Source of the DNA: Schizochytrium sp. TIO01
Lineage: Eukaryota > Protista > Bigyra: Labyrinthulomycetes
DNA: 31,090 nt
Direction of reading: 5' to 3'
Assembly: GCA_004764695.1 (NCBI GenBank)
Contig: SMSO01000023.1
Location: 1-31,090, forward strand
Both the position numbers and the translations under genes were made by a program. Within the stretch, counting starts at the first letter, position 1. Each line of letters begins with the position of its first letter. Positions 2,448 through 29,698 of the stretch are shown piece after piece. The notes beneath the pieces were generated by a model. The model ran no database searches, had not been told where the DNA came from, and saw only the letters and a list, made by a program, of their open reading frames with translations.

Positions 2448-2536
2448 GGATGTTATTATTATTTTATTTATTTTAAAATAAATCTCTTTATTTAAAATGA
2501 TAGTAAGGGGGGAAAGATAGAGAGGGAGCGACACTA

Positions 2537-3391: not shown

Positions 3392-3473
3392 AAAAAGACA
3401 AAGGCCTTGTTAATACTTTTCCTGCAAATCGTTTTTATAAGATAGAGTATTTGTTTTTGGAAGAACCAGAGTG

Positions 3474-4455: not shown

Positions 4456-4512
4456 TATATAATTGATATTCATAAGTGTGGAAAATAGTTTAGACTTTGA
4501 AAAGATAAGACA

Positions 4513-6178: not shown

Positions 6179-6182
6179 TAAA

Positions 6183-6749: not shown

Positions 6750-6809
6750 TTTTTTTTCGGATTTAGAGAAGACTTCTACTATTGCAACGATTGGTTTTCT
6801 ATGATGTCA

Positions 6810-7239: not shown

Positions 7240-7403
7240 TTTTTTTGTGCTTATAATTATCTACTCTTATTTAATTCTCTTATGTTTAAAATATCTGGAT
7301 AAATATTTTTTTATTATTAATGTGTAATTATATCCTAGTCTTATTTTCTTTATTTAAAAATTATATATTTGTTTTTTCAGAAAAGAGAAATACCAATTAA
7401 ATG

Positions 7404-7772
7404 TTACTTGGTATGCATTGCATGAGCAAAACTTAAAAAGCCTGACTTTGTGTTCATAATGGAAGGACTATTAGTTCCTGTTATAAGCTCATATGATGAA
7501 ATGAACTTATCTTTCAAAACACTTATTAAAATTGAAAGTATAACAAACAATAAAACGACAAGTAACTGAACGAACTGGAATACACCATCGTCAATAAGTT
7601 TTAGAATCATATTGTTTGCCTGAAGCGCGAGGATGAACATAATTGCTCCTTGAAAAGTCTCTAACACCCGAAATGTGAAACGATATGAGAAAAGCCCACA
7701 CCAAGTCATACAGTTTGCACAAAAACGATCACAAATCTGCATATCAGCTTCGACATCTTCAAAACTTTGCAT
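7404..7772 (-). CDS. Hypothetical membrane protein (122 aa) with an N-terminal Cys cluster
   Basis: ATG ORF; hydrophobic stretches FQGAIMFILAL and VFQFVQLLVVLLFVILSILISVL; C-DRF-C-AN-C-MTW-C. Confidence 0.6.
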   Translation of the reverse strand: MQSFEDVEADMQICDRFCANCMTWCGLFSYRFTFRVLETFQGAIMFILALQANNMILKLIDDGVFQFVQLLVVLLFVILSILISVLKDKFISSYELITGTNSPSIMNTKSGFLSFAHAMHTK

Positions 7773-7858
7773 TGTTTTCTTTTGTTGATACCTATTTTTT
7801 TTCCTTCACTCATATATAATTTTGATTAGTCCTCAAAATATAATTATTGTAGGAGACT

Positions 7859-8089
7859 ATGACCAGGAGAGCTCCCCCTCGAGGTTTAAATACAGGTAAA
7901 CAAAGAACAAAGAATAGAAAAGAAAAGAAAAGAAAAGAAAAACAATATGACACGAAACAAGTTCCTACAATTTTAGAAGAGATCACTGTTGGCGGGGAAC
8001 AAAGGTTTGTTGAAATCACTGTCGCTGCAAACGATCACAATCTCGAAAAGGCGGCATTGCAAAAGACTCTAAAATGCTGCATCCAATAA
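7859..8089 (+). CDS. Small basic protein ending in a CaaX-like motif (KCCIQ*)
   Basis: 76-aa ATG ORF divergent from the 7772 gene; Lys/Arg-rich N-half partly encoded by (GAAAA)5 at 7917-7941; C-terminal CCIQ. Confidence 0.5.
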   Translation: MTRRAPPRGLNTGKQRTKNRKEKKRKEKQYDTKQVPTILEEITVGGEQRFVEITVAANDHNLEKAALQKTLKCCIQ

Positions 8090-8250
8090 AGTTTTCTTTT
8101 CATTTTAAACCATTTTATACGATCTGTTATTAATACCAGAAATGAATAAACTTTTCTCCATTACAATAAATAAATATTTTATTTTACTTTTCTATTTTAT
8201 TTTATTTATTTTTTTAATTAAAAAAAATATATAAAAATATAAAGGTTTAA

Positions 8251-10974: not shown

Positions 10975-11193
10975 GTGAGAAAGGGATAATACTCTAGTAC
11001 TAGAATTGAGATGCCTTTTTTATTTATGTATTTCATAAAGCCATGTTGCTGATTTTTGAAGTTGAAGGGAACGAAGACCCCTTTTATAATATAGAAAAAG
11101 GATGGAACAAAAAGGAATCTTTGGTAAAATCTTTTTTTCTTCTTCTGTGATATCTTATTAATATTGATTACTATGATTACTTAGTCATGATGG

Positions 11194-14100
11194 TTAGCAA
11201 GAACAGTCAAGAGTCTTACCGCATTGCGTTCCATAATATGGGTACTCGCAAATACAATAAGCTGTCGAATTTGATTTAACTCCACCATTAAGACATGTGA
11301 CAGTACTTTCACAATTGACACCCCAATACTCTGAACTATCACAAGTACACTTCCCAGTGGTTTGATCACAAGTTCCTCTATTGTTACAGTCTCTGTTTTC
11401 ACAGTAGTCTACTGTCCCTGTTCCAAGTTCATCGTCATCGACACCTAATTCAGTCGCCACAAGTGTGGTAATTGACGTTAGCTTGGAACCAATCGATTGA
11501 ATCGCAGACAACTTCTCGTCAATTTTTGGATCATCTTCCGTGTTAGACTCTGATGAAACAACATAGACGATCTCGATATTTCCGTTGGTAGCATAAATAG
11601 TGATATCATCAGTAGTAAGGTTCAATTGTGCCGCGAGAGCCTCTTCGAATTCTGAGCCGTCAGAGAAAGAAAACCCCGAGTTAACAAGCTCAGAAAATGT
11701 ACTGGCATCAAGTGAATATGTTACTGAAACTTCAATTGAACCGGAGCTTTGGAGGTCGCGGTGACCATCAGGTGACTCCCTAATAGTCTGCAAGATTCTA
11801 CGCGTTTCATCATCAAATTGAAACTCGCACATATCACTATAAATGTTACAAACGAGCTCCTTTAATGCAGCACCGAGAAGCTCTTCGTCTCCACCAAGAC
11901 TATAAATTAAATCTGCGTCAAGAGTGACTGATTCTGAACCATCAATAAAGACTGTCAAATTAGCCCCTGTTTTTAGAGTCTCATTCGTTTGACTTTTAAC
12001 AAGCTCGTTTACGATCGTTTGTGTTGCCGTTTTAATTTTCGTTGCATTACTACTCTTCAATGACTGGGAGACCTGTCCAAGAGACTTTGCAAATGTTTGT
12101 TGACGCTCTATCTTAGTTTCACATTCTGACTCCTTTGAACATGTTCCCTCATATTTATCTTCACATAGCATAGTATTGAAATTGCAGTATGGAAGACGGC
12201 CGGATTGGATCTTGGCCTTACAGTCCAAATGTTTGCTGCACTCTGGAACATTTGTACACATAAGGTATTCTTCGTTGCAAAAGACCTTGGACGTAAAGTA
12301 GGTTGCTGCGGCTTCTTTGCAGGTGGCGTGATCACCACTGGTACAATATACATCTGGACCCTCTAGAGGACATAAGTAGTCATGAAAGACATCAATTGTC
12401 TTCGGAGGATCAAACATTGATGCATAAACACCTGTCAAACTCTTAAAGTAATTACCATTATGTTCACCGAAAGTTTTCAGGTCACCATTCTTCGTTCTAG
12501 CAAACAGTGCCTTTCTTCCCCAAATGGCAGTAACTCCTGTAATATTTTGGATCTTAATCGGGGTTGTATAAGTTGCATCTGAGTTCGTGCTATTTCCATC
12601 TAAGACACCATAATTGTTTCTGCCCCAGCAATAAACGTCTCCTGAATTTTGTTTAACTCCGCAGGCGAAGTCATTTGAAAACACGGCGAATTTATTATCA
12701 TTTCCCATACCTTCAATAACCTTTCCAGTGTAATCTGCTGTTCCAACAGCGGATGGGTCAATTTGTCCGTAAGTGTTCGTGTTACCAGCACAAACGATCT
12801 GCCCTTCCATATTGACTACACAGCTGTTAAAGTTTGAGGGGCTGCTAAAGTCACTAATTTTTGCAAATTTACCTGTACAATTTGTGACTACAGATTTTGA
12901 TACTTGTACTTCATGGCAGAATCCGTAAGTTCTTCCAGCACATGCAACTTGATTGTCTTCGTACATATAGCAAACGGCATTTGGTCCAGCAGGGAATATC
13001 CGTTTAATTACTCGGTCACCTAGATCTTGAACAGTAAACATACTTTGTATAGCATCACTTCCTCCGGTTCCAAAGATATTGTCGTTGTTTTTACCCATGA
13101 CTTTCACGGTTCGGTTGTCATTGCTCAAGAAGAAGGTAGCTGAGTCTGTAACAACGACATCTTTATAGCCTTGTCCGGGACTTTCAATGTTAACTTTCGT
13201 TGGGTAAGCAAGTATCGATGAAGATCCACTGTTCTTGTTACCCAAACTGCCGTAAGTACCAGTTCCCCAACACCAAACAGAGTCATCTGTTGGATCAATT
13301 AAACATGCGTGGTTATTTCCCAGGGATAACTTGCTTACTGCACGTGGACCGTAGTCCAGGCTTGAGATCAAATCATACAATTCAATAGTACCACTCTTTT
13401 GACCATTTCCCGTTAGATACTTGCCATAGTAATCCGTTCCGAACATCCAGACCTGGTTGAGATCCGTGTTGACAATAGCACCCATGAAGTAATTGAACTG
13501 TCCTTCTGTTGAACAAGAATGACCTGGGGTAGGTGCTTCTGTTGGAATTTGAGTCGGTGCCATTGACGGAGCAAACTTTGGTGAGCAATAGGCTTCTTCA
13601 ATTACTTGCTGAGTCTTCACAGTCGTTCCCATAGATGAACTTCCAATCCGCAAAGGATTATTAAATCCCCAGGTCTTAACAGTTCCGTCTTCGAAAAGCG
13701 CGACATATAGATTATTAGAGCTCCGGAACTCTCTCAGATTTGGCATCCTCGTATTTTCGATCAAATCTGTGAAGTGATGTGTGGAGTCCGATTCCGAAAA
13801 AAAACCATAAGCACCATTGCCCTTACAGTATGTCTTTCTGTCCCGTTTCTTAACACAAAAACCTTGTTCAAATGCCCAAAGGTCAATATTGTAATTATCT
13901 GTCCCTTCAACGACAAGCCATTCAGAAGTGAAAACATTCGTCGCTAGCTCACTCGTAATTACCTGGAAGGTGTTCTTTCCTGAAGCATAAATTCTCCCAT
14001 CAGTTCCAAGTCCCCAAATGTTGTGCTGTCCGAAAGTGACTTTAGTGAAGCTCATGTCAGGAATCAAAATGGGAGAAAGCTGACTATTTCCACTTACATA

Positions 14101-16079
14101 ATCAGGAAGCCCCATACGATTGTTATCATTGTATCCCCAACAAGAAAGTGTGTTGTTATCGAAAAGTGCACAATATGTGTAATAATTGTTTTCAAGCTGA
14201 ATGATTTTTGCACCGGCGCTAGAATCACGGTTGATAGCATATTTTGGAGAATAACTGGCTCCAGTAGTACCTGCGCCATTCATACCATAGGAACCATATC
14301 CAAGACACTTTACTTCAGTCCTGTTATTAATAACCAGACACATATTTGAAATTCCTACTGAAATTTCATTAATGTTTTCTATCGTTTCATCATTATCAAG
14401 CACAGTAAAACGAAACATCTCATACAAGTAAGTATTCGATGTTCCTGTAATAACCCCAGAGGCGTCACTTCCGATGCAATGAACTGAATCGTCATATCCA
14501 TCAAGGACGCAGGCTAAAGCACCGCTGGTCCGTTCAACAGAAAGTTGGACTGGGTTAACATAAGAGCCAGGTATCTTCGTCGGGGGGTGATAGTCAATGT
14601 CTCCAACATCTCTTCCCAAACCCAGTACTCCAACTTCATAACGGTCAATGCCCCAGGCAAATACGGCGTTGCGTTCTTCACTAATATAGTAGGAAGCACC
14701 TGCGGTAGTAGTTGCAATGTTCGCTCCGCAATTCATCTCTGAAGTTGTTGGGAAAGGTGTAGTAGGTTCTCTCGTTGGATAGACAGTTGGAGACATCGTT
14801 GGATAAAGTGTCGGTGCCATAGTTGGTGGTAGAGGTGCACATGAAACACCTTCCATAAGAACTGGTGTCGACGGGACAGTTCCACTTGCGTCAAATTTGG
14901 GGTAGTTGTTTGCTCCCCAGCAACTAACGGTATCATCAGTCAGATTATGACCACAAATAACTTGAGAATTTACTGATACAATAGTCTCGGCAGTGATTCT
15001 GTCTGATTCAATGAAGTTGGAGAATGAGTTCACTTTGGAACTATGAAATTGTCCATTGGCATTCAAACCCTTGCAAAAAACGGTTCCATTTGTCTTTCGA
15101 AGACAGAAGTTCCTACACATGAAGATACAAGCAATGTTGTCGTTACCTGAATCAAAGACTTCAACAGGTCCAGATTGGATGTAGCTACCTGAATCAACAT
15201 CGTTTGAGTACATTCCATCTTTATTTTGCCCTGCAAATAAGAAACGACCATCCAAAGTGATGAGTCCGATATTTTGTTCATCCAAGGTGATGTCTTTAAT
15301 GTTACCCTGTTCTTCTGTGTCGACCCACGTTGGACTTGGAAGGCTCGTCGACCCGGTGATTCCAAGTGCATAATTTGCGTTCCTACCCCAGCACGTGACA
15401 GTGTTGTTACTAAGAAGTGCACAGAAGTGATTATCAATCTTATCAGAAACTAACTTCTTAATTGTGACCCCTTCTTCGAGGTTCGTTTCATAACTTAGGG
15501 TGTCGAAAGGTGGAACGTCGCGACCGTTTGAGGTTGTACCTCTTCCGTTTTGGTAATAAGTATTGGTACCCGAACATGTTACGACAGTTTGATTAATTGT
15601 AACTGCACACAAGGAGTCCTTGATACTGCAAAGGAACTGTACTCATTTGTAAAATCCGGCAGCTCAGTGAACTCGGTGAACACCGTATACGTATTGCTAG
15701 TTATTTCTTTTGAGATCAGGTATCCTGAATTTGATCCGACGCAGTGAATTTTATGGGTTAGTCCATCGAGGACGCACGCGAACGAAAGTGCCTCTCTAGG
15801 ATGCATCGGCGAACTAATAGTCGAGTGATTGATCTTGAAAGGTTCGATGAAAGATGCCGAGGGGTCACTAGCGCTACTGAGTTCCTTAAGGGTATTAGTT
15901 CCCCATCCATACATCACATTCCGGTCGGGACTAGCCCAAATAGTCGCATAGTTACCAACACTTAAGGAACTTTCACAAATACTTAGGTCATATTCGGCAG
16001 TTGGCGCAGGGGTCTCTTCCTGCGCGTTGGCCTTGCATAGGAACAAGACAACGAACAAGACTATAGTCTGTAAAACCAT
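11194..16079 (-). CDS. Secreted protein (~1,628 aa when repaired): signal peptide, three RCC1/BLIP-II-like propeller blocks with PT-rich linkers, the same Cys-rich/EGF C-terminal module; one frameshift near 15613
   Basis: ORF 16079-15579 supplies the signal peptide (MVLQTIVLFVVLFLCKANA) and first RCC1-like repeats and joins ORF 15612-11194 on adding one base. Repeated C..L...V.CWG.N..G.LG motifs; linkers PTMAPTLYPTMSPT and PSMAPTQIPTEAPT; C-terminal ~350 aa homologous to the 907-aa neighbour. Confidence 0.88.
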
Positions 16080-16170
16080 TAGTCTAACTCTTTTGTGCTC
16101 TTACTGGACATTCCCCTCACATTTGTACTTATATATTGAATTCAAGATGAACAAGTTCTGATTGAAAATT

Positions 16171-16772
16171 ATGGGAGACAGAAGAAGTAGCTTAATCTTC
16201 AGCACTGACATCGGAATCATAAACATTGGCGTAGCTCTTTATGATAGCTCAACCAAAAAGATGGTCTATTGTGATCGAATCGCCTTCGCACCATCCCTCA
16301 AGGCGCTGAAGTCGCAAAGAAATATTCCAATGGGGATCTACAACCTTATGTTTAACAAGGAAACCTCAAAGATTTACCCTATGCTCAAAGAAGCGAGTAT
16401 TATCCTCATTGAGGATCAGATGAGACTGAAAATGTACATTGCGCAGTACTCAATCGTTTCTATGTGCATCTGTGAAGGTTTTGAATACAAAATCGTTCAC
16501 TCAAAGTCAGTCAAGACATTTTTTAAAACAGGTGCTGCTTCACGGAAGGTCGCAGGGAAGGTCGTTCGTGGTGCAGAAAACAATCGAAGGGCAAATAAAG
16601 CTGCTGCGATTGTTAAAGCCCATGAATTTTCCCAAAAGATATGGCTAAAGTACCAAAAGCAAAACAGGATGATGTCGCAGATGCAATACTTCAGGCGTGT
16701 TGGTATGATAGAGCTTGCTTATCCAAAAAGCAAATCCCACCGATGTTCTTCCTTACTTTCTCTTTCGTTTAA
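16171..16772 (+). pseudogene. Poxvirus A22/RuvC-like Holliday junction resolvase with one frameshift near 16630
   Basis: RNase H-fold motifs STDIGIINIGVA and IILIEDQ in the first frame. The diagnostic KQDDVADAILQA lies in the alternative frame (16662-16697), which ends at TAA 16770-16772. Confidence 0.85.
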
Positions 16773-17531
16773 CTCGTTACTCTTTAAAGTGTGTTGCTCC
16801 ATCAAAGGACTAAGCTTCGTATTTACATAATGTGTTAAGTGTTCAAAGATTTCATCTGTAGGGATCCCTGCTACATTGAGAACACCGCTCGAAAAGACCT
16901 CGATTGCAAGATGTGTCGCTTCTGGAAATGGATGTACTACGAGTGCACAGAATGATTGCTGGTCCATTGAGAGGGCTGGACTAGAGCCGTCATCCTCTTT
17001 GGTAGAAAGAGTTAGTGACTTTGCAAATTGATTTGCCCTCCTGTTGTTATAATCACCGTCATACCCTTCAAGCTCTTCACTTTTATGAACATCATATGAG
17101 GGCAGTACCCATGGTTTTTGTTTTCGACCTTTTACTTTTAGTGAAACTGAAGCCAAGGAGTTCAAGCTAAGAAACAAACCCTCGAGATCAAGGGGCTTGT
17201 GAGGTGTATAGTACTTCTCTACCCAATTTACCAAGGTCGATTTATCAATATCTTCTTTTGTAACTCCAAACAACGATTCAAAAACTGGAATGAATGCGTC
17301 GGATTCCATTGTCATTGTAAAAACCATGCAAACGAGCGCAGGGTAGGGTAACTTTTTGGCATCGAAGATGTTCATCGTGAAGGCCTTTTCGTAATACGTA
17401 CATCGCCAGTCACTGGAGACTGAAAGGACACAGTTCCGGTGAGTATGAGCAAACTCATCCAAAGTTATGTTTACTCGAATAATAAACCTGTAAAGCTTCA
17501 AGCTTGTTTCTGTTCGAATAATATGTCCCAT
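16719..17531 (-). CDS. TBP: Divergent TATA-binding-protein-like protein (270 aa)
   Basis: C-terminal SFCALVVHPFPEATHLAIEVFSSGVLNVAGIPTDEIFE matches the TBP repeat pattern (F.gl..r...p.....iF.SG.....G). A weaker first repeat lies at YYEKAFTMNIF...PALVCMVF. Confidence 0.65.
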   Translation of the reverse strand: MGHIIRTETSLKLYRFIIRVNITLDEFAHTHRNCVLSVSSDWRCTYYEKAFTMNIFDAKKLPYPALVCMVFTMTMESDAFIPVFESLFGVTKEDIDKSTLVNWVEKYYTPHKPLDLEGLFLSLNSLASVSLKVKGRKQKPWVLPSYDVHKSEELEGYDGDYNNRRANQFAKSLTLSTKEDDGSSPALSMDQQSFCALVVHPFPEATHLAIEVFSSGVLNVAGIPTDEIFEHLTHYVNTKLSPLMEQHTLKSNELNERESKEEHRWDLLFG

Positions 17532-17561
17532 GGTCTTACTTGTTATAATTAAGATAATTAA

Positions 17562-17626
<65 letters not shown>
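17562..17626. repeat. (ATT)n microsatellite, ~21 units
   Basis: Perfect trinucleotide run directly visible, ~30 bp upstream of the TBP-like start codon. Confidence 0.97.
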
Positions 17627-17627
<1 letters not shown>

Positions 17628-17713
17628 TAATGGTTTAAAGCTTCAAGGAGAAAAAAAGTAATTAAAAGCTTATGCTTCACTGTAAGACCATCTGTTCTGT
17701 TGACCATTCTTAG

Positions 17714-18251
17714 TTACACCATGGGCGAACAAACACTGATGGACATATATCCAGACTCAAGATCATCACCAGCACCACTTTTAAAAGTTACTGATACTGC
17801 ATGCCAGGGAAGAAAAGGAACATAGATGATCTCACCATGATCTATAGAATAAGTAAAAGTAAAATTACTCAATGAAAATTTGCCTATCCGCTCCAGGTTC
17901 ATTGTTTCGTTGAAGAGATAAAACGAGTGTATCGCATGGGCGAGATAGTGTGATAAAAGTGCGTCTTCTCCCGGACAGGGAACTGTCAATATTCTTGATT
18001 GACTCGCAGCACGGATTTCTGGAGCAGATTTGTGTACCTCCACCACAAATTATAATCCGAGGATGAACGGAATAATTGAACTTTGATAGGACACAAAAGC
18101 TTGGAGACTATCATTCCTGCATGCAAGGTCTCTACTACAGGTACGTAGTAAACATCATTCATTCGTTAAAGAAGGAATGCAAATAATTGAGGAAAAATGC
18201 TACTGTGTTCTTACAAGTCTCCCACACTGAACTTAGTGAAAAGCTTTCCAT
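17714..18251 (-). pseudogene. Frameshifted ORFan (~180 codons)
   Basis: ATG 18251 (MESFSLSSVWETCKN...) continues by frame changes through MNDVYYVPVVETLHAG...LWWRYTNLLQ into ORF 18046-17714. Confidence 0.5.
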
Positions 18252-18378
18252 TACATATATGAATTAAGAAGATTTCTATTTTTCCTATCTTGTACTTGAA
18301 AGTAATTTATCATCTTTATATAATGAGAGAACTATTCCTTTATATAGCAAGTGTGCTAATGGTTATTATCGGGAGATC

Positions 18379-19454
18379 ATGCAAAAGGTTTTATTAATTG
18401 CAAATATTGGCGAAAGCAGTCAAAGTCGAATCATGATTAAAAACAATCTTGATCATTTTAGTAACCACGATGACATAGCTGCTACAATTTATGACATAAA
18501 GCTGGGAAATGCAAGTGCAAAGTTGGAAAATATCGATATATGTCTAGTATGTATTGGACAAGATTTTGAGCCATCAGTTAGCATTCAAACATTGCTCTGT
18601 GCCATCCCAATTATAAGCCCCGGATGGTCATTATAGAAACTGTAATCCCGGTTGGTACAGTTGGGAAGTTTGTTAAGGCAACTGCAGGTGAAATTCCCAT
18701 CGCATACCCCCTAAACATTATTCATCGGTGTCCCTCGCTTCCATTTGAAGCACCGCGTGACTCACCGAGACTGTTAGGAGCAAACTCAAGAGAAGCTGCA
18801 CAAGTGATTTTGCCATTTTTATCATTGTTTTATACTCACATCTACATTACAGAAACTGCAGAAGCTGCTGAGTGCGCAACTCTTCTGGACTTGGCAAAAA
18901 GAGCTGCTATTCAAGCTGCTATCGATGAGTTTTCTGCCAATTTTAGCAAAGAGATATCGATGCGCGATGCAATTGAAGGCTCGAACTTTATCTGGACCAA
19001 TTATCAAAATGACCACCCATCTTTAGGAATCAAGTATAACTTTGCTTCGCTGATCGGTAGTGAAGAGAAGTTTCCCTTATTAACTACAGCTATTGAACAG
19101 CTCTGTCTACGCCCGCGCTTCATCTTCCAAGATATCGTAAATAGATACTGCTCAGGCGACCTTGATAAGGTACACCAAAAGGCTTTCCTGATAGTAGGAT
19201 TCGGAAATCAACCAGGGGCTTCAGAGCACGATGAATCTCCAATTTCCGAAATTGCACAAATGCTTACTATGGAAGGTGCAAAAGTCACTATTTATGACAT
19301 GTTTATCAACAGGTTCTCTACAATAAACCCACCAAGTATAGTCTATAACTCAGGACGACACATCTATGATGGGATCCTTGTTATGCACCCCTACCTTATT
19401 TCATTATGGAAAGACTACCCTCACGCTACTTTTTATTGTAAAGTAGCAAGTTAA
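18379..19454 (+). pseudogene. Degenerate UDP-glucose/GDP-mannose dehydrogenase family homolog (~358 aa) with one frameshift near 18623
   Basis: Family-like motifs DICLVCIG, VIIETVIPVGT, PRLLG, AEAAECATLLD..RA...A.IDE and LIVGFGNQPGASEHDESP....Q.L..EGAKVTIYD; catalytic motifs are altered. Confidence 0.75.
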
Positions 19455-20068: not shown

Positions 20069-22735
20069 ATGGCTGACAACGATGACCAAAGACGTGGCGG
20101 TGATGCTGGAAGGGGCAAGCGATCGGTACTTAGACGCGGTATCTCTGCCGTCGCATCAGCAGGGAGAGCCATGCTACCCTCTTCTTCGTCCAGCCGTCCT
20201 CCTCCACTGACTCAGGAAGATATTGGTCAAATGTCTGTGGAGGAGCTCATCGCTCTCGTTGACGACGACGAACGTATGCTAGAGCTTATTCAACATAAAG
20301 GCTTGATTCGAAAGTTAACCTCTCAAATTTTCGCTTTTACCAACGAAGGAAGCCTCCTCCCAAATAAGGATCAAGCTGCAAACGACGACTTTTCAGAAGA
20401 GTTAACCCAGAGAATCGCGGATTTGCAAAGGTCTACAACCATCTGGGAACCCTCTTCTTCGTCCAGCCGTCCTACTTCACTGACTCCGGAAGTTATCAGC
20501 CAAATGTCTGCGGAGGAGGTCATCGCTCTCGTTAATGACGACGAACAGATGCTAGAGCTTATTCAAGATGACGAGCTTCTAGAAGTGCTTCAAGACCGCA
20601 TTACTTCGTTATCGAAAGACAATCGTCTTCTTCCGGGGAAAAGCAAAAAGGAAAACCGAAAGCGTAAACAAGAATTAATCAAGAAAATTTCAACTTTCGA
20701 AGACACTGCAACCATCTGGGATCACTTCGCTCAAGATCCAGCAACGATCGAAACCAAGCGAATCTTTTCAACAACGTCGAAAAGGAACCGTCAAGACGTA
20801 GAGAATGAAGACGAAGAGGACCGCGAAGACGAAGAGGACCGCGAAGACGAAGAGGACCGCGAAGACTCATTCGATGATAGAGCAAAGCGAGTTGCTGTGA
20901 GCCAGTCCGCTGCCGAAAGTTCCGCACAACGCGAGAAGCCGAAGGGTCGAAAAGCCCAGACATCACAGATGTCGAAAGCTACGACAGAGGTCCCTGAATA
21001 CTTCATGCCACTCTACGCTGAAGGTTGGGAAATTGAGAAGGATCCCGAGTCTGATGCTGCAATTGAACTGTTCTCCAGAAAGAGGAAAATGTTCATTGAG
21101 GAATGTTATGCTCTGGAGTCTGATTCGTATGATTGTTTCCCAGAATCTGAAGTTCATGGATACATGATGAAGATATTAGGGTACATTTTAAAGGCTGGAA
21201 TGAAGAATGTTCTAAAGGATGTAATTACATACACGAACGACGGAAACTTTGCGATCGACACAAAAATGGAAGCAGCAATACAAGTTGCAGCGTCTATTTA
21301 TCATCGAAGGGTTGATATGCAAATATCTGTCAAGGATAAGACGAAGGAGGAGAAGATTCGTAAGCAACTGAGGGATGAGGATAAAACGAGAGGAAAAGTG
21401 CGCGAAAATCTATCTGCTGAGCTTAATACTCTGCTGACCAAGGCAATATTGACTATGCTCGAGTGCAAGACACCTGAAACCTTGAAGGAACGTCCTATTG
21501 ATCTGATTGATAAGTACTACGTCGAGGACTGGGCACCTAGAAACAAAGAGGTTGCAAAAAAGGAAAATCCTGATAAATACAAGGCTTTTCAACAGGCCAT
21601 CGAAACAACTAAAGTGAAAAAACTTCCTTCTCGCGCCGCGAAGAGGAGAAGTCTGGTTATTCGTACTATAAAAAGTGCCGTTGCCCAACTTTGTCTTTAC
21701 ATGGTGTCTACAGCCGTTAATTTTGGTGCATTGACGAATGGACCGCAGACGTACTTTTTCCATCGCGATTCCAAAAATCGGACTGTTAAGGTGAGCGAAG
21801 CTTTCTACTCAAATAGAAACGATAACGAAGGTCGTTCCAATCCAGGGAACTGGTCACTTGGTCAAGCGTGGCTCGTTTTTCTCTATCGTGCACTTAAAGA
21901 TCACAACCCTACCCGTGGTAATATGAACTTAGAATGGCTAAAGGACGGAAGTGAAGACACAAAAGAAATTGTGGATACTATTATAAAAGGCGATGTCAAT
22001 GTTTCAGTACAAGAACGTTCTTCGGAAGGCAGTTCTAGCGCCAGTACTAACAATAGTACAAGTCGGAATGGCAACTCCACAAGGGCACGCAGATCTAGAA
22101 ATCGTGGACCACAAAGAAATGCTGCCGTCTTTGCTGCGTTTCGACTGGGCCCTAACTTGGAGACCCCCAATATGCGAACTGTTCTGGGCGGTAAAGCTGT
22201 AGGATATCCGGACATCATGATCAACGGCGTCTCTAGCTTCGTCAAGACGACTTACGCACTGCATGATTCTGCGTATGCACTTGGACATGAGGGTCAAGTA
22301 TACGCAGCTCTGCACGCGCTGCAGGGTGATGTAGTACCACGGGTAACAGCTTGCGGTCTCGACGAGACTCTGAACCTGGTAGTTTTTGCGACGGAGCAGT
22401 GTGGTAAATCACTGTGCGATCTACATACGCAGGAATTAGAAGAGTACGGTGGACTTGAGGAACTGTACTGGAAGGCTGCTTTAGCTCTCGACAAGATCCA
22501 TAAGGCTGGTTTTATCCATGGAGATGTGGCATTGCGGAATATTGTTGTCGATGATGCTAGCAATGTGAAGTTTATCGACCTGGAGCGCAGCAAGAAGTCT
22601 CGCAGCGAAGCCCTCCGCGAAGAAGATTTTAACCTGCTCGCGGAGGCATTTGGCATTGACTCGGCAAAGGATTTCCGGACTTTGTCAAGGACCAACAATA
22701 CAGAGGCGCATCTAGAGAACAACGAGATTGTCTAA
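20069..22735 (+). CDS. 888-aa protein: duplicated N-terminal helical domain, acidic linker, PD-(D/E)xK-like nuclease and atypical protein kinase (Crinkler/CR-effector-like architecture)
   Basis: Kinase: FVK, HEGQVY..L..LQGDVVPR, IHKAGFIHGDVALRN, VKFIDLE. Nuclease-like: SEV helix, RVD, MLECKTP, AVAQLCLYM...FGALTNG..TYFFHR. Intact frame. Confidence 0.8.
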   Translation: MADNDDQRRGGDAGRGKRSVLRRGISAVASAGRAMLPSSSSSRPPPLTQEDIGQMSVEELIALVDDDERMLELIQHKGLIRKLTSQIFAFTNEGSLLPNKDQAANDDFSEELTQRIADLQRSTTIWEPSSSSSRPTSLTPEVISQMSAEEVIALVNDDEQMLELIQDDELLEVLQDRITSLSKDNRLLPGKSKKENRKRKQELIKKISTFEDTATIWDHFAQDPATIETKRIFSTTSKRNRQDVENEDEEDREDEEDREDEEDREDSFDDRAKRVAVSQSAAESSAQREKPKGRKAQTSQMSKATTEVPEYFMPLYAEGWEIEKDPESDAAIELFSRKRKMFIEECYALESDSYDCFPESEVHGYMMKILGYILKAGMKNVLKDVITYTNDGNFAIDTKMEAAIQVAASIYHRRVDMQISVKDKTKEEKIRKQLRDEDKTRGKVRENLSAELNTLLTKAILTMLECKTPETLKERPIDLIDKYYVEDWAPRNKEVAKKENPDKYKAFQQAIETTKVKKLPSRAAKRRSLVIRTIKSAVAQLCLYMVSTAVNFGALTNGPQTYFFHRDSKNRTVKVSEAFYSNRNDNEGRSNPGNWSLGQAWLVFLYRALKDHNPTRGNMNLEWLKDGSEDTKEIVDTIIKGDVNVSVQERSSEGSSSASTNNSTSRNGNSTRARRSRNRGPQRNAAVFAAFRLGPNLETPNMRTVLGGKAVGYPDIMINGVSSFVKTTYALHDSAYALGHEGQVYAALHALQGDVVPRVTACGLDETLNLVVFATEQCGKSLCDLHTQELEEYGGLEELYWKAALALDKIHKAGFIHGDVALRNIVVDDASNVKFIDLERSKKSRSEALREEDFNLLAEAFGIDSAKDFRTLSRTNNTEAHLENNEIV
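20177..20722 (+). repeat. Tandem 273-bp (91-aa) intragenic duplication
   Basis: ccctcttcttcgtccagccgtcct...atgctagagcttattcaa begins at both 20177 and 20450; both units end in TIW(E/D). Confidence 0.92.
20807..20866 (+). repeat. 18-bp perfect tandem repeat x3.3 (gaagacgaagaggaccgc; EDEEDR)
   Basis: Directly visible. Confidence 0.96.
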
Positions 22736-22776
22736 TAAAGCCAAGCCATTTCAAGGTCATGGTTCGCTTAGTTTTA

Positions 22777-22903: not shown

Positions 22904-25900
22904 TTAAGTTTCCTCCCTCATTATGCCCAATACTAAAGATACAATTTCCTCATCATCTTCATCAAAGATTTTTCCTGCAAACTGAAGTTCAGATTGAAAT
23001 TCGTGTTTTGGAAGTAAGTTATACGAATCTTGGTGTAAGCAAATCTTGATGTAATCATTCAGAAATACCGTTAGAATACAAGACTGTTGTGACGCACTCG
23101 GGTTGACCCTGGGTAAATTTTTAGTGGGATTGTCTAATTTGAAGTATTCATTCTCAACTAATAAATTCTTGACAATGAACTTCAGAGCAAACTTTTTCTC
23201 TTCACTAGTTGTGTAGATGTCACCGACAAGTTCCACTGATTGAGCTTCCTCTTGCTTTGTGTCATAAATTTGAAGAGTCTTAAGTTCTGAAATAGATGAT
23301 ATTTGCGGTCCAATGTCAGGGAAAATTGGTTTTAGATCGCCGAGTCTTTGTTGAATTAACTGAAAGATTTTCAAAGACTCCATTCTTGAAACATATGGAT
23401 CACCAATTTTCACAAATGAGTTTTTTTCAGTTTTTTTCCAGGTCATTTTTAGTTCTGCATCAAAAGGCGTGACGTTTTGGCTATCCTTATTAAAGAGTGC
23501 TGGTACTACGTCATGACAGACAAGCGGGGTCACCTTTGCCGTCATTTCCTCTTGCGGTGAGACAATAGTACGGAAATTCTTAACATCTGACTTGCTAAAG
23601 ATTTCTTCTAGATCACCTCGATTATGTCCTTCAAAGTGCCCTGTGAAGAAATTCATCAGTGTCAATACTTCCACTGCGAGGTATTGTTTCACTTCGTCAT
23701 CTGTGAACACCTTTTTCCCACAAAGTGTATTAATTGTTTTCAAAAGCATTAATGGCGCCAAATCCAAGGCACCAACCATTGAAAATCCATTGGGGATCAT
23801 ATCCTCCTCCACGATTACTCGGTGCTCTTTCTTATCGGCAATCAGGAAGAGGCGACGATACAGGACATTTCTAAAGGTTGCCTCAATTCCAACTACTCTG
23901 AAGAGAATATGCAAATATTCTACTTCTTTCTTCGCTGCACCTGTAAAGTTCGCTTCCTTCAAAGAGACCAGATTCAACAACAGAAATCTAATCTCATCAA
24001 TAAAATCGTTGATACTTTTGTTAGTGAACTGTAGTGAGTCAATTTCTTCAAATTGTATCTTCTTCTGATTCATAATTTGCTCACTATGCTTAAGAAGAGT
24101 CAAGATTTTTCGGAGGCGTCCCGTTACTAACGAGACCAGCTTTTCCATTTCTGTCCCATTGATAATTGTGTCCTTATACTGTGCAAAAGGTCCGATCATT
24201 GACCGGTAAAAGTAAGCAAATGTCTGATTATCGATATCGTCATCTGTAAGATCCGAACTATCTGTTTTCTTGAATACCAAATCCAAGATACGTAACAGTT
24301 CGTCATCAGCTTCAACAACAATTGGGTTTTTAAATTTGTTATTCTCGATGTAGTTCATGTCGAATGAAGTCTTCGATTTTGTCTTTTGAGATTCGAAGAC
24401 GTTTGATTGTCTAATCATTGGTTCTAAGCGATCATTACTGATGTCCGACTCATCAGGAGCAATGATGACATTGTTATCATCATACTCAGTAAACATCTCA
24501 TAGAAGAGGAATCGAAGGGCACCAATAGAAGCTCCATCATCCTGGAAAAGCTTTGTAATTTCCAAAGGGGTCATTGCAGACGTCATGACATTATTCGATC
24601 CTAATTCCTGAACTGCAAGTTCTTGAATATTCTCATTGCTCAATGAAGAAAGATCTACTAATTCCGTAGATTGAAGGATCAATTCTTTTTCCTTTGCAAG
24701 CCTCTCCTCTTCTTGAGCACCTTTGAGTTCTATTTCTTGCTCAGATGAGATAGTGTCTGACTCAATAATTCTTGAGATGATTGCTTCTGCGAGACGACCG
24801 ATGGTTGCATCTTCTGTTCTTAATCCCAAAGCAATTACCAAGCTAGTCAGAGTGGTCTTCTTATTCTTATCTTGGAGAAGAATAAACTTATAGATAATGT
24901 ATCTCGCATAGACTGTGTAGTTCGACCAACGCCCGAACGTTGTCACATTCTTCGCAATTTCCAAGGCCTCCTTTGCTTCTTCGGTTCCCTTTTTCAAGAG
25001 GGCCTTCGTATTCTCATACAAAGTGTTGAGATGGTAGTATCCTGTTGTCAACTCATGTAGGTTCGGAATCATTAAAGAAGACTCATCAAGGGACTTGTTC
25101 ACGTGAGGAATATCTCCACTTCCTTCTTCCTTTGGTAGACCCGCAATCTTCAGCAGAAAATCGTACAATTCTGGTGCGATCAATTTCATTTCACCGTTTG
25201 GTGCCTTCAAAGTAGAGACTCGCGACGAAAGCAGATTTCTCTGCAGGGCGGGAAGATTTGGAATAGCTCTCGAAGGTGGAGGAGGTGGTATTTCAGGAGT
25301 TACTTCAGTAACTTCGTTTTCCTCCGGTAATTCTTGAACTGGCGTTTGAGCACTTTCTAAATTTGTTTTAAACTCAGACAGTCTGGTTTCAATAGTTTTG
25401 ACTTGTTCAAATAATTCTAAGCTTTCCACAGACTTTAGGTTGCTCGCAATAGTAGCCATGTTCTTCTTGTAACCTGCGGTCGTTTTGATTTCCTCGATGA
25501 AGTCTGTCTTTAGGTTGTCAAGTTGACTCTTCAGCTGAGCAACGTTTTCGGTAGTCACCGGGCGTTTAAGAATCTCATTGAGCGTGTTTACTAATGATTC
25601 GTAGGTCGTTAGCTTCTCATTAAGTAATTCGTCCCCTGAGGTTAAAAGTCGCAACCACACAGGATCTTTATTTTCAGAGTCAAACCGAAACTCTTTCACA
25701 CCATCTACTAATTCAACCATTTCAGTGAAAGTGCTCGTTAAATCCTTCGTATCACATTTGTCTTGAAGATCTTTAATTTCTTCTAATTTCTTTGTAACTA
25801 AATCAATTAGATTGGACGTTTGTAAGTTTTCTACACTGATCTCCGTTAAAAGTGTCTTCATTTGTTCGACACCAGACACTATTTGATCCGAACTGAAAGC

Positions 25901-27322
25901 TGAACCGAAAATTTCCTTGAGACTTTTCACTATTAGTTCTATGATATCCTTTCTCTTAGGTCTGGTAGTGTCTCCGCTGATTTCTGGATAGCATATACTA
26001 ACATTATCTGAGAATTGGATCGTTTCGTCATAGTGCTTAATCACTGAGTTCAGAATAGACAGCATCGCGTCTCTCTGTTCACCATATGTACATTCATCTA
26101 TCACTTCCATCAGGGCATCCATTTCATCCTCTTCAAGGTTTCCTGAATTGAATAGCTCTTGTAATTTACGCTGGAAATCTGCTTCTTTTATTTTACTTCT
26201 TTCTAAGGGATCAATGGAGCTCAGAAAATCATGCTTACCCTCGTCGCTACCCTGACCTTTCAAAAGTTTCCAAATGAGACGTCTTACTATGTTTTCCTCA
26301 TCTTCTGTATCGGCACGTAAAAGAATGTTTGTAATGTTTGTAGCATCTGTCTCTGAAATAAAATTTCCTTCCTTTAGAGCCTCGAGACCATTCCTAAACG
26401 ATTCTGGGTCGATCGAACCATCGGAGTCATCACCACCCTCACTCTCGTCAAAAGAATATCTTTCCATGTTATCTAGAATCTGGGATTTTAATTTCGAATT
26501 TTCTGTAGATAGGTCTTTCTTTTGCTGTGAGACCTGAACAAGTTTACGGTTCAGCTTGTCCAGCATTTCAGTCTGATTGTTTTTGGTTGCTTGGATATAT
26601 TTTAAGGAATGTTTCAGTATTCTTATGTCGTTTTCTAGACCCTTACGAACCATCTCGTCTGCTTCAATCTTTTTACCAAGCTCGAGAACTTTCTCTTCAA
26701 GACCAACTTTCTCCTCTCTTGCCTTTGTCTTCACTTCGTCCAGCATCGATGAGAAAACTTCTTTCTGTCTCTGCGTCACGGAATCAACAAAGGGTATACT
26801 GACTGCTATATTCGACTGATTCTTTTTCAACTCAGCCTCCTTCCGGTGCAATAACTCGTCATTTTCTCTTCGGTTAAGCGTTAGAAGAATATTTTTCCCA
26901 GTTCGCTTGGAGTCACCAAGTGCCGAAAGGTATGTACTATCTCCTAAATTTCTGCCGTCATCCTCTTTGTAAGGAATATCAGACGGGATAATGGCTCGTT
27001 GGTCACTAGAACCAAACAATGCACTAGTTTTATCAACTCGAGATCGCCCAAAAAGCTCAAGAATGGAAGGACCAGTTAAAGAGATATTTTTTAAAGGAAT
27101 ATCTTCTCCATCGCGAGTTTTGAAATGCGGCGCTGATGCTGAGCTTCTTGCATGGGAAGCATCACACTTACAAAAGAAAGATGCATTCGTTGGGCACATA
27201 CACGGTTCATAAATGTTTCGCGATGCATCGTTCAACATCCCGCAGTCATCACACTCGAACAGATACGCACCACATGAATTACAGGCATGTATTCCTTCGA
27301 TATATTTCCCACTAGTTCCCAT
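22904..27322 (-). CDS. Large hypothetical protein (1,472 aa): N-terminal Cys cluster, coiled coils, central polyproline
   Basis: Intact ATG ORF; CNSC..CDDC..CMC..CKC at the N-terminus; E/K/L-rich heptad segments; PPPPP near the middle. Confidence 0.85.
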   Translation of the reverse strand: MGTSGKYIEGIHACNSCGAYLFECDDCGMLNDASRNIYEPCMCPTNASFFCKCDASHARSSASAPHFKTRDGEDIPLKNISLTGPSILELFGRSRVDKTSALFGSSDQRAIIPSDIPYKEDDGRNLGDSTYLSALGDSKRTGKNILLTLNRRENDELLHRKEAELKKNQSNIAVSIPFVDSVTQRQKEVFSSMLDEVKTKAREEKVGLEEKVLELGKKIEADEMVRKGLENDIRILKHSLKYIQATKNNQTEMLDKLNRKLVQVSQQKKDLSTENSKLKSQILDNMERYSFDESEGGDDSDGSIDPESFRNGLEALKEGNFISETDATNITNILLRADTEDEENIVRRLIWKLLKGQGSDEGKHDFLSSIDPLERSKIKEADFQRKLQELFNSGNLEEDEMDALMEVIDECTYGEQRDAMLSILNSVIKHYDETIQFSDNVSICYPEISGDTTRPKRKDIIELIVKSLKEIFGSAFSSDQIVSGVEQMKTLLTEISVENLQTSNLIDLVTKKLEEIKDLQDKCDTKDLTSTFTEMVELVDGVKEFRFDSENKDPVWLRLLTSGDELLNEKLTTYESLVNTLNEILKRPVTTENVAQLKSQLDNLKTDFIEEIKTTAGYKKNMATIASNLKSVESLELFEQVKTIETRLSEFKTNLESAQTPVQELPEENEVTEVTPEIPPPPPSRAIPNLPALQRNLLSSRVSTLKAPNGEMKLIAPELYDFLLKIAGLPKEEGSGDIPHVNKSLDESSLMIPNLHELTTGYYHLNTLYENTKALLKKGTEEAKEALEIAKNVTTFGRWSNYTVYARYIIYKFILLQDKNKKTTLTSLVIALGLRTEDATIGRLAEAIISRIIESDTISSEQEIELKGAQEEERLAKEKELILQSTELVDLSSLSNENIQELAVQELGSNNVMTSAMTPLEITKLFQDDGASIGALRFLFYEMFTEYDDNNVIIAPDESDISNDRLEPMIRQSNVFESQKTKSKTSFDMNYIENNKFKNPIVVEADDELLRILDLVFKKTDSSDLTDDDIDNQTFAYFYRSMIGPFAQYKDTIINGTEMEKLVSLVTGRLRKILTLLKHSEQIMNQKKIQFEEIDSLQFTNKSINDFIDEIRFLLLNLVSLKEANFTGAAKKEVEYLHILFRVVGIEATFRNVLYRRLFLIADKKEHRVIVEEDMIPNGFSMVGALDLAPLMLLKTINTLCGKKVFTDDEVKQYLAVEVLTLMNFFTGHFEGHNRGDLEEIFSKSDVKNFRTIVSPQEEMTAKVTPLVCHDVVPALFNKDSQNVTPFDAELKMTWKKTEKNSFVKIGDPYVSRMESLKIFQLIQQRLGDLKPIFPDIGPQISSISELKTLQIYDTKQEEAQSVELVGDIYTTSEEKKFALKFIVKNLLVENEYFKLDNPTKNLPRVNPSASQQSCILTVFLNDYIKICLHQDSYNLLPKHEFQSELQFAGKIFDEDDEEIVSLVLGIMREET

Positions 27323-28087: not shown

Positions 28088-29698
28088 TCAAGGGCGTGGA
28101 GGTGGTCGGCGGCGCAGTCCTCGAAGTAAGCTGTCCATGTCATTGTCCATTTCTAGGAGCTGATGATGAGGATCGAGCTCATCAAAATCAGCAGCGGTGA
28201 GGCTATCAAGATAACCGGGATGATGATCATGTGAAAATTGCTTAGAGTCATCTTGATCACGTTGCTCACTTGACGAATCTGTTCGTTGGCTACTTTCTGA
28301 AAGAAGTGCATCCGCTTGAGGCATGGATGAAGGATTCAAGAGGCTTGATTTTGATGCTGGACATACTGAATCAATTGTTGTAGAAACGGGCTCTACTTTC
28401 CGTTCATCACATGAAGAACCTGTGACAAAGCGCTTGGCTTTAGAAAAGCTTACTGCGCCGCGCACACCGTGGCCAAAAAGCTCGGGAACTTGGTATATTG
28501 GCCCTGGCGTTGTTGATGAAGTAAGTGGCTCTGGATGGGCACTTTCCTTTGCAAATGTGCATAATTTGGGTGACGGCCCTACATTCTTACCAAGATTGTG
28601 CGGAAGTTGCATATAAAGATATTCCTTTCTTTCCTTTCTTGCCTTCACGGCTCGCTCAGGGTCCAGCCAGGCATACGGGTCCAGCTTTGGAACTGGTTCT
28701 CGTAATTTATGAGGTGCTGTCTTTGGTCGGTCGCGAGTGCTTGTGTCAACTAAGCCACGGTCTGGCCCTTTTCCAATAGAAAACGAGGGACCTTGGGTCA
28801 ATGAATCGAGCATGGTGCTTCCCGAGGGTGAGTACTTGAATCCTGGCTCTGGGCTTTGCCGATATCCATTTTTTGCAGACCAATTTCCAGTATATAACTT
28901 ATCGTAATCATCAGCAGTAGTTGTACTTATGCTAAACGTTGTGGAAGAGGGTGCAATTACAGCCTCCCCACGAAGAGCACCCTCGTATTCACCAGGTCCA
29001 AGGGAGCCGGTACTACCTGCATAGCCGGCTCGAATATCCGATCGATGCCCTGAAAATGCAGAGGACCGGTTTTCCTGACTGAAATCAATTTTTGAAGGAA
29101 TACTCTGGGGAGTATAGCGTGCAGGCCCTGGAGTATCAAGTGGTAACGAATCCGGTGCGGGTTTTCCCATGTACATTTTCAATACATCATCTCGCCCTGC
29201 TTGACCAAAAACTGTTTTGGGAGACATTGGCGAGATATTCTCATAAGCTCGCTGTACTTCATCTCGGCCAAAGCAATCTTGTCCCTGCAAATCTTGGAAT
29301 CGTTTCAAGCCTGGCCTCTCGCGGCGGGGGGTTACTGCATCAGAAGATCGCATTGATACTGGTGAGCTCCCAATTTTTGTCTGTGCCCTGGCTTGGTTTC
29401 CGGTAATCTCTGTGCCTTTGTCTGCATCATCGCCTTTTTTTAAGCCGCTCCGTCTCTTCGAGGAGGGCGATTTCTTTAGCGTTGATTGTGATAATAGCGA
29501 CGAAGAAGGTGCCGACTTCAAATTGCGTCTTGCGGCATCCAATTCAGCCTGATTTCTCTCCGCACGGCCTGATCTGCTTCGCAAAGAAGATGGTGAGTTC
29601 ATCATCGAACTTGGAACTGTACTGGCTTTGACAGGCCGAGGACGAATTTTTGATGCAGAGCTTTTCGTCAGCCCTGCGGGCCTCGCCTCCGCGCCCAT
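28088..29698 (-). CDS. SHIPPO-repeat (sperm-tail PG-rich, ODF3-like) protein, probable host axonemal gene (~536 aa)
   Basis: Repeats TPGPARY, LGPGEY, SPEPGFKY..GPSFSIG and TPGPIY..AVSFSKAKRF; disordered S/R/P-rich N-terminus; visibly more GC-rich than the left block; first in-frame ATG at 29698. Confidence 0.8.
   Translation of the reverse strand: MGAEARPAGLTKSSASKIRPRPVKASTVPSSMMNSPSSLRSRSGRAERNQAELDAARRNLKSAPSSSLLSQSTLKKSPSSKRRSGLKKGDDADKGTEITGNQARAQTKIGSSPVSMRSSDAVTPRRERPGLKRFQDLQGQDCFGRDEVQRAYENISPMSPKTVFGQAGRDDVLKMYMGKPAPDSLPLDTPGPARYTPQSIPSKIDFSQENRSSAFSGHRSDIRAGYAGSTGSLGPGEYEGALRGEAVIAPSSTTFSISTTTADDYDKLYTGNWSAKNGYRQSPEPGFKYSPSGSTMLDSLTQGPSFSIGKGPDRGLVDTSTRDRPKTAPHKLREPVPKLDPYAWLDPERAVKARKERKEYLYMQLPHNLGKNVGPSPKLCTFAKESAHPEPLTSSTTPGPIYQVPELFGHGVRGAVSFSKAKRFVTGSSCDERKVEPVSTTIDSVCPASKSSLLNPSSMPQADALLSESSQRTDSSSEQRDQDDSKQFSHDHHPGYLDSLTAADFDELDPHHQLLEMDNDMDSLLRGLRRRPPPRP

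What the first reader, a model, noticed from the sequence alone, without database searches (positions are those of the whole stretch)
20069..22735. Intact Crinkler-like nuclease-kinase fusion embedded among giant-virus genes
Seen: a PD-(D/E)xK-like core (RVD...ECK...Q...YM...FG.LTN..TYF) interrupted by charged helical inserts, an S/N/R linker, then a compact kinase (HGDVALRN, FIDLE). Known: restriction-endonuclease-fold plus kinase fusions with variable N-terminal header domains define CR (Crinkler/RHS) eukaryotic effectors, proposed to derive from transposons and act as toxins. Inference: a host selfish/defence effector that landed in the provirus, or a virus-carried toxin/addiction or superinfection-exclusion module in which the kinase controls the nuclease.
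Basis: partly seen in the sequence, partly recalled or inferred. Interest (0 to 1): 0.7.

Follow-up and report, generated by a model that had tools for sequence, protein, structure and literature searches.

The report
Spok-like nuclease-kinase at a provirus edge
This is an unbroken gene joining a predicted DNA-cutting domain to a kinase, one of many copies in its organism, lying at the likely edge of an integrated large DNA virus; it likely works as a one-gene poison-and-antidote, and published viruses of related marine protists appear to carry the same overlooked kind of gene, which might help them persist in their hosts.

Summary
The 888-aa ORF has an intact PD-(D/E)xK set (E359, D416, E465-x-K467, Q540-x3-Y544), two helical inserts, a linker and a compact kinase with all catalytic residues. 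It is not a single-copy kinase: 65 of 78 long homologues carry both domains, one has a true Crinkler header, and a Spok-type fungal protein is a more distant relative. Single sequencing runs hold several diverged, partly frameshifted copies. 'Embedded' is only half shown. Genes on the left look mirusvirus-like and partly decayed; on the right are an unplaced 1472-aa ORF and then a host-type gene. The gene's codon use is alien to the viral block, and being intact is not significant. Best reading: a recent copy of a dispersed CR/Spok-type family that likely acts as nuclease toxin plus kinase antidote. New lead: the published mirusviruses AurliV-1 and AurliV-2 carry three and two genes annotated only as kinases, two of them highly expressed, whose printed translations show the same nuclease motifs by eye. 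Spok genes stabilise dispensable fungal chromosomes, so such genes could stabilise persistent viral genomes. Function is untested and the nuclease fold search was inconclusive.

The parts
20069..22735 (+). Intact 888-aa ORF: repeated header, acidic linker, PD-(D/E)xK nuclease-type domain, linker, compact kinase
20177..20722 (+). Header: two tandem 91-aa (273-nt) units; first 121 nt 88% identical; no Pfam match; unit number differs among copies
   Evidence: P0001 has one unit; joints that skip 273 or go back 548 nt in contigs
20807..20866 (+). 18-nt tandem repeat encoding the acidic linker
20954..21907 (+). Predicted restriction-endonuclease-fold domain, aa 296-613: E359, D416, E465-x-K467, Q540-x3-Y544
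   Evidence: (HSDR_N_2 E 1.5e-4, below Pfam cut-off)
21335..21673 (+). Two helical inserts (aa 423-458 and 471-535) flanking the E-x-K strand; the most variable part of the nuclease domain
22016..22138 (+). S/N/R-rich low-confidence linker; no Spok cysteine cluster
22139..22678 (+). Compact kinase of RIO1/Bud32/CurKC-like fold: K726, E741, D819, N824, D837
2..19454 (.). Context: likely mirusvirus-type, partly decayed gene block (ribonucleotide reductase large and broken small subunit, EGF/propeller and RCC1 surface proteins, Holliday junction resolvase, TBP-like gene, split nucleotide-sugar dehydrogenase)
22904..27322 (-). Context: 1472-aa ORF, Cys-rich start; viral or host origin unresolved
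28088..29698 (-). Context: host-type PG-repeat (SHIPPO-like) gene, likely outside the viral element

Best explanation
The gene is one intact copy of a multi-copy nuclease-kinase family of the CR/Spok type, which likely arrived recently from the host genome at the edge of an integrated, likely mirusvirus-type element and likely works as a single-gene toxin-antidote. Shown: architecture, intact catalytic residues, many diverged copies, kinship to a Crinkler-headed and a Spok-type protein. Inferred from Spok: the PD-(D/E)xK domain damages DNA, and the kinase protects the cell or nucleus that still expresses the gene, so that descendants or fusion partners lacking it are harmed and the DNA carrying it is kept. 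Inferred: the variable helical inserts set specificity, the repeated header sets localisation, and copies spread passively by recombination, since no transposase or terminal repeat was found.
For: Architecture is a family trait: 65 of 78 hits of 380 aa or more also carry the upstream domain. In 40 aligned homologues D416 is D in 35, E465 is E in 37, K467 is K in 36, Q540 is Q in 38, Y544 is Y in 35 and E359 is E in 29. The model (pLDDT 77.8, pTM 0.66) gives the helix-strand order expected of the PD-(D/E)xK core (fold definition from my own knowledge); 13 of 78 members match the type I HsdR N-terminal family weakly, at E up to 1. Spok has an HsdR-like PD-(D/E)xK domain with QxxxY needed for killing and an ELK-like kinase needed for resistance (PMC6660238, passages) and kills through DNA (PMC9972908, abstract). 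P0167, which has the Spok cysteine cluster, is hit by the family profile at E 6.6e-30 and in the nuclease part alone at 38.9 bits and hhalign probability 85.7. Multi-copy: run X1 has 92 contigs on the gene (40/16/19/17 at 99+/95-99/90-95/under 90% identity), four different versions over the same kinase stretch, and contigs with 1-20-nt indels; X8, X15 and X20 also show several versions. Alien to the viral block: GC 0.465 against 0.34-0.42; codon fit z -8.0 against -2.7 to +1.9 for ten left-side genes. Relatives sit singly, intact or broken, among ordinary eukaryotic genes: no viral hallmark among 42 ORFs from 9 of 28 metagenome loci. Of 26 hits looked up, 5 are Hondaea fermentalgiana proteins, 2 are from Mortierellaceae fungi, and none is named viral.
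Against: No activity was tested. The Spok cysteine cluster, which Spok3 needs for resistance, is absent here and in all 78 aligned members, so the antidote step may differ. For CRN8 the review says killing depends on the REase domain and describes the kinase as a regulator, not an antidote (PMC5289972, section 11). Fold searches returned only kinases and the nuclease region found no solved structure by sequence or profile, so the fold rests on motifs, topology and weak Pfam hits. Where the near-identical copies lie is not shown; they could be in other viral elements. Published mirusviruses carry genes of this kind, so a viral home is not unusual. The codon test has one host gene for comparison and the z value grows with length. 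The host genome is not held. The tree does not place the protein with support beyond P0001.
Confidence: 0.5

Rival explanations
1. The gene belongs to the virus: an addiction module that keeps a persistent viral genome in dividing host cells, with host copies left by repeated exchange.
For: AurliV-1 has three tandem genes (ORF729, 460, 459) and AurliV-2 two (ORF95, 915) labelled PANTHER PTHR37171 / 'Meiotic Drive Suppressor Kinase'; their printed translations show D, E-x-K and Q motifs like the window's, by eye. The paper lists two of them among the ten most expressed genes of their viruses, and three appear in its proteomics table. Spok limits loss of dispensable chromosomes in Fusarium (10.64898/2026.10.04.756499 and PMC12693581, abstracts). 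Kinase exchange among host, mirusvirus and skiavirus is reported (10.64898/2026.07.28.741200).
Against: Codon use and GC are unlike the viral block; close paralogues are many and partly broken; no relative in IMG/VR by three pattern scans (low sensitivity); the AurliV genes are distant relatives, and four short motifs of this protein are absent from the first 400 or so characters held for each AurliV translation; the element looks partly decayed.
Confidence: 0.22
2. A host defence effector: the nuclease attacks invading or viral DNA or triggers cell suicide, with the kinase as sensor or switch; its place beside viral genes is incidental or marks a break that it made.
For: The CR review proposes that some non-secreted CR proteins target intracellular invasive DNA and that the kinase regulates the REase. 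Variation concentrates in the inserts: 20 non-synonymous and 4 synonymous among listed sites, against 1 and 3 in the kinase (39 coding sites of the 40 shown, 470 not shown).
Against: PADLOC matches cover only the kinase part of this protein; no sensor domain was found; viruses carrying and expressing such genes fit a selfish or viral role better.
Confidence: 0.13
3. A passenger with no present function: a neutral recent duplicate not yet hit by mutation.
For: Intactness is expected with probability 0.21-0.31; 30 of 39 listed coding variants are non-synonymous; broken copies are common.
Against: Against P0001 the kinase and the nuclease core are 71% identical but the inserts only 19% and 40%, so the family has been under constraint; this does not prove that this copy is used.
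Confidence: 0.1
4. A secreted Crinkler effector used against other organisms, or an ordinary signalling kinase.
For: One homologue has a Crinkler header; databases name relatives as ordinary kinases.
Against: No Crinkler header, and the N-terminus is charged with no hydrophobic leader; nuclease residues are conserved across the family; it is not single-copy.
Confidence: 0.05

Closest known systems
CR (Crinkler-RHS-type) proteins with REase + kinase C-termini (Zhang et al. 2016, seen only through the review PMC5289972; e.g. CRN8)
   Same: Variable header, then REase, then kinase; direct similarity to Crinkler-headed P0028 (BLASTP E 3e-18, 26% over 333 columns); expanded family with broken copies.
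   Different: No ubiquitin-like Crinkler header but a tandem 91-aa header with no Pfam match; two long helical inserts; lies beside viral genes; numbered CR-REase clade not determined.
Spok toxin-antidote / meiotic drive proteins of Podospora and Fusarium
   Same: HsdR-like PD-(D/E)xK domain with QxxxY, then a linker and an ELK-like kinase in one protein; profile link to Spok-type P0167.
   Different: No C-x3-C-x13-C-x5-H cluster (0 of 78); different header; not fungal; killing and resistance untested.
PTHR37171-labelled 'protein kinases' of mirusviruses AurliV-1 (ORF729, 460, 459) and AurliV-2 (ORF95, 915), supplement of PMC12606086
   Same: By eye the same nuclease motifs upstream of a kinase, in thraustochytrid mirusviruses.
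   Different: Distant in sequence, 610-715 aa, other headers; published as kinases only; no score was computed.
Dispersed nuclease-kinase genes of Hondaea fermentalgiana and unnamed protists
   Same: Same module; several paralogues per genome; single genes among housekeeping genes.
   Different: About 20-25% identical to the window protein; no viral neighbours seen.

Membership tests
CR proteins (REase + kinase class) | REase-superfamily domain coupled to a protein-kinase domain | tested here: met
   Motifs, leave-out profile (75.5 bits), conservation and model topology
CR proteins (REase + kinase class) | Structural match of the middle domain to a solved REase fold | tested here: inconclusive
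   Fold searches were filled by the kinase; no PDB match by sequence or profile; domain not folded alone
CR proteins (REase + kinase class) | Variable N-terminal header in front of the toxin module | tested here: met
   Tandem header shared only with P0001; P0028 has a Crinkler header on the same module
CR proteins (REase + kinase class) | Lineage expansion with broken copies | tested here: met
   for relatives
CR proteins (REase + kinase class) | Assignment to one of the numbered CR-REase clades | not testable with these tools
   Zhang et al. 2016 not held
CR proteins (REase + kinase class) | Nuclear localisation and REase-dependent toxicity | not testable with these tools
   Basic clusters at aa 197, 337, 525, 674 are only suggestive
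Crinkler (CRN) in the strict sense | Ubiquitin-like LxLFLAK header (Pfam PF20147) | tested here: not met
   No Pfam family at E up to 0.001 in aa 1-294
Spok family | HsdR-like PD-(D/E)xK domain with QxxxY | tested here: met
   D416, E465-x-K467, Q540-x3-Y544; HSDR_N_2 E 1.5e-4, below cut-off
Spok family | ELK-like kinase with catalytic aspartate | tested here: met
Spok family | Cysteine cluster C-x3-C-x13-C-x5-H before the kinase | tested here: not met
   Absent in the window protein and in 78 of 78 aligned rows; present in P0167
Spok family | N-terminal coiled coil | not tested
   Header was not folded
Spok family | Killing by the nuclease, resistance by the kinase | not testable with these tools
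   Needs expression tests
Mirusvirus (for the neighbouring element) | Virion module genes (HK97-type capsid, portal, terminase, triplex) | tested here: inconclusive
   None recognised in the window; libraries may lack these profiles
Mirusvirus (for the neighbouring element) | Informational genes of AurliV type (resolvase, TBP-like, ribonucleotide reductase) | tested here: inconclusive
   Resolvase and TBP-like genes resemble AurliV-1 ORF181 and ORF762 by eye, in the same relative orientation; no score computed
Autonomous transposon | Terminal repeats or a transposase | tested here: not met
   Only simple-sequence inverted repeats near the gene; no transposase family

The most novel reading that the evidence does not exclude
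Thraustochytrid mirusviruses repeatedly capture Spok-like nuclease-kinase genes from a selfish host family and use them as single-gene addiction modules that keep persistent viral genomes in their hosts; the highly expressed AurliV 'kinases' are such modules, and this window catches a capture in progress at a provirus edge.
Probability: 0.2. Interest if true: 0.82.

Novelty: new member of a known kind. Interest (0 to 1): 0.5.

Why it matters
The protein type is known. What is not in the papers I could search is its link to mirusviruses. How episomal mirusviruses stay in thraustochytrid cultures for decades is stated as unclear (10.64898/2026.07.28.741200, section 7). If the viral 'kinases' are nuclease-kinase toxin-antidotes, that gives a concrete mechanism with a ready yeast assay borrowed from Spok work, and it would extend plasmid-style addiction to large DNA viruses of eukaryotes. 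For this one copy the more likely story is modest: a selfish host gene that reached the edge of a decaying provirus.

Tried and rejected
No whole genome is held, so copy number and flanks could not be mapped. Word search of 5.8 billion proteins found only P0001. The ESM Atlas gave no answer for three sequences. Single-sequence fold was useless (pLDDT 35). Fold searches did not test the nuclease domain; a Pandoravirus DUF5898 row (rank 5, rmsd 21.7, 10% identity) is only a lead, and DUF5898 is listed as a kinase-clan family (PMC9758233, one passage). No relative of the gene in IMG/VR, of the TBP-like gene or of the 1472-aa ORF; only kinase-part matches in prokaryotic genomes (5 loci); nothing in plasmids. 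Expression: no RNA holder listed; X15 and X20 are guessed RNA, X20 has a 49-kb contig and may be DNA, so their contigs show nothing about transcription. The first 97-base bin laid upstream of the gene had no cover in X8, X15 and X20; a hole proves nothing and I did not count it. Contig depth was not used as copy number. The motif search of the AurliV tables is void for C-terminal motifs because held cells are cut at about 400 characters; it was redone with N-terminal motifs. One alignment put the conserved Asp at D436; I rejected it because P0001 keeps D416 but not D436 and the model starts a strand after D416. The maximum-likelihood tree did not finish; the FastTree tree (75 of 78 rows, 3 short rows dropped) has long branches and no supported neighbour beyond P0001. 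The scan's own notes held nothing.

Full report
1. The observation. The window holds one uninterrupted ORF at 20069-22735 (+), 888 aa. Its parts: a charged N-terminus; two tandem 91-aa header units (273 nt apart, first 121 nt 88% identical); an acidic linker from an 18-nt repeat; a middle domain, aa 296-613; an S/N/R linker; and a kinase, aa 691-870. Pfam sees the kinase (Kdo E 5e-5, Pkinase E 1e-4) and, weakly, the type I restriction HsdR N-terminal family (E 1.5e-3 on the whole protein, 1.5e-4 on the domain, both below cut-off).

3. Known kin. P0028 from the fungus Linnemannia zychae has a Pfam Crinkler header (40.5 bits, cut-off 24.6) on the same module and aligns to the window protein at E 3e-18; it is 1 of 78 rows with that header. 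The review PMC5289972 (passages and section 11 read) says REase plus kinase makes up about one sixth of CR C-termini and that alpha-helical headers occur. The original paper, Zhang et al. 2016, was not held. The family profile also found P0167, a fungal protein with the Spok cysteine cluster (E 6.6e-30; nuclease part 38.9 bits; hhalign 85.7). Spok3 has an HsdR-like PD-(D/E)xK domain with QxxxY needed for killing, and an ELK-like kinase plus cysteine cluster needed for resistance (PMC6660238, passages). Spok1 kills through DNA (PMC9972908, abstract). The window protein lacks the cysteine cluster, as do all 78 rows. It works like a Spok by anatomy but is not a Spok member.

4. Copies. Twenty of 24 listed runs, from 13 studies, hold the region or part of it. 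On 19870-22770, run X1 has 92 contigs in four identity classes (40/16/19/17), four different versions over one kinase stretch (59, 27, 2 and 29 differences), and contigs with 1-20-nt indels; X8, X15 and X20 have 49, 28 and 44 contigs with several versions; header-unit number varies. This is more than two alleles of one locus. Where those copies lie is not shown. Of the 40 differences listed (470 more hidden), 39 are coding: 20 non-synonymous and 4 synonymous in the two inserts, 1 and 3 in the kinase. Against P0001 the kinase and the nuclease core are 71% identical, the inserts 19% and 40%. Of 26 family hits looked up, five are Hondaea fermentalgiana proteins, on contigs up to 498 kb, two are Mortierellaceae proteins, and the rest name no organism. 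A metagenome scan gave 28 loci, some duplicates and some kinase-only; in 9 of them 42 ORFs showed ribosomal protein S8e, glutaminase, kinesin, sulfate permease and the like, no viral hallmark, with family copies both intact and broken.

5. Context. Left of the gene: ribonucleotide reductase large subunit, a small subunit broken by one stop and three frame changes, EGF/propeller and RCC1 surface proteins, a resolvase, a TBP-like gene and a split nucleotide-sugar dehydrogenase. The resolvase and TBP-like genes resemble AurliV-1 ORF181 and ORF762 by eye, and AurliV-1 also lists RCC1-like and propeller proteins; mirusvirus gene content was read in passages of 10.1101/2023.06.15.545109, PMC12606086 and PMC10827195. 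I infer a mirusvirus-type element, distinct from AurliV-1 and -2, in a likely thraustochytrid host; no virion gene was recognised in the window. Right of the gene: a 1472-aa ORF that nothing places, then a PG-repeat gene of host type. The finding's gene fits the viral codon model worst (z -8.0; ten left-side genes -2.7 to +1.9; 1472-aa ORF -4.6; PG-repeat gene -4.5). So it lies at or near the border. Some neighbour breaks could be assembly errors; the long intact ORFs beside them argue against a uniform error rate. Intactness of this gene is expected with probability 0.21-0.31. No terminal repeat or transposase was found.

6. The outside precedent. In the supplement of PMC12606086 (rows seen, cells cut at about 400 characters) three tandem AurliV-1 genes (ORF729, 460, 459) and two AurliV-2 genes (ORF95, 915) carry the label PTHR37171 / Meiotic Drive Suppressor Kinase. 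Their printed translations show, by eye, a D, an E-x-K and a Q motif in the same order as here; for ORF95 the cut falls just after the Q. The text names the kinases behind ORF459 and ORF915 among the ten most expressed genes of each virus, and ORF459, 729 and 915 are in the proteomics table. The main text has no occurrence of meiotic, Spok or toxin and the supplements none of restriction endonuclease. The preprint 10.64898/2026.07.28.741200 (abstract, part of Results, section 7, passages) reports exchange of a multi-copy 'SPS1' kinase among host, mirusviruses and skiavirus and calls the maintenance mechanism unclear; its supplements are closed, so I cannot tell whether SPS1 is this family. Spok genes limit loss of dispensable chromosomes (abstracts of 10.64898/2026.10.04.756499 and PMC12693581).

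7. Mechanism and odds. Shown: anatomy, intact catalytic residues, multi-copy state, kinship. Inferred: nuclease as toxin, kinase as antidote, inserts as specificity, recent arrival from the host family (0.5 together). Rivals: a virus-owned addiction module (0.22), antiviral defence (0.13), a functionless young duplicate (0.10), a secreted effector or ordinary kinase (0.05).

8. Novelty. The architecture is known from CR proteins and Spok. I found no paper linking it to mirusviruses or giant viruses in these searches: crinkler with thraustochytrid, labyrinthul, giant virus or mirusvir (20 of 355 listed, crinkler present in one general review), restriction endonuclease + kinase + crinkler + NCLDV (none), mirusvir with Spok, toxin-antidote or addiction (one listed, none with mirusvir). 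Zhang et al. 2016 may mention viral members; I could not read it. A selfish Crinkler-like gene in free-living eukaryotes is already described (PMC12957317, abstract), and host elements invading endogenous giant viruses are known (PMC12455990, search listing). Verdict: new member of a known kind, interest 0.5, carried mainly by the testable mirusvirus lead.

Noticed in passing
supplement of PMC12606086, AurliV-1 rows 162-164 and AurliV-2 rows 147, 202: Five genes published as protein kinases show PD-(D/E)xK-type motifs upstream of the kinase by eye; three are in tandem on the AurliV-1 episome.
   Followed up: partly
window 3474-4391: Ribonucleotide reductase small subunit is broken by one in-frame stop and three frame changes, while 2.7-4.4 kb ORFs nearby are intact.
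   Followed up: partly
window 8251-16079: Two large surface-type proteins (907-aa propeller-like and a split RCC1-repeat protein) share a Cys-rich segment and C-terminal EGF-like repeats.
   Followed up: no
window 16719-17531: Divergent TBP-like gene with no Pfam hit; 8 homologues, one 97% identical on a Logan contig, so a close relative of the element exists elsewhere.
   Followed up: partly
window 18379-19454: Nucleotide-sugar dehydrogenase-like gene (TIGR03026 E 3e-7) split over two frames; no such annotation was found in the AurliV tables.
   Followed up: partly
window 22904-27322: 1472-aa orphan ORF with a Cys-rich start, a charged helical stretch and a poly-proline motif; origin decides where the viral element ends.
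   Followed up: partly
window 17560-17626 and 22777-22800: TAT/AAT microsatellites in intergenic spacers on both sides of the dehydrogenase and nuclease-kinase genes, in opposite orientation.
   Followed up: no
L020:1-4612: The whole contig is one long inverted repeat (94% self-match) holding two broken family copies; possibly a foldback element or an assembly artefact.
   Followed up: no
L008, L015, L017-L019: A 110-215-nt dispersed repeat, partly palindromic, recurs near several family loci.
   Followed up: no
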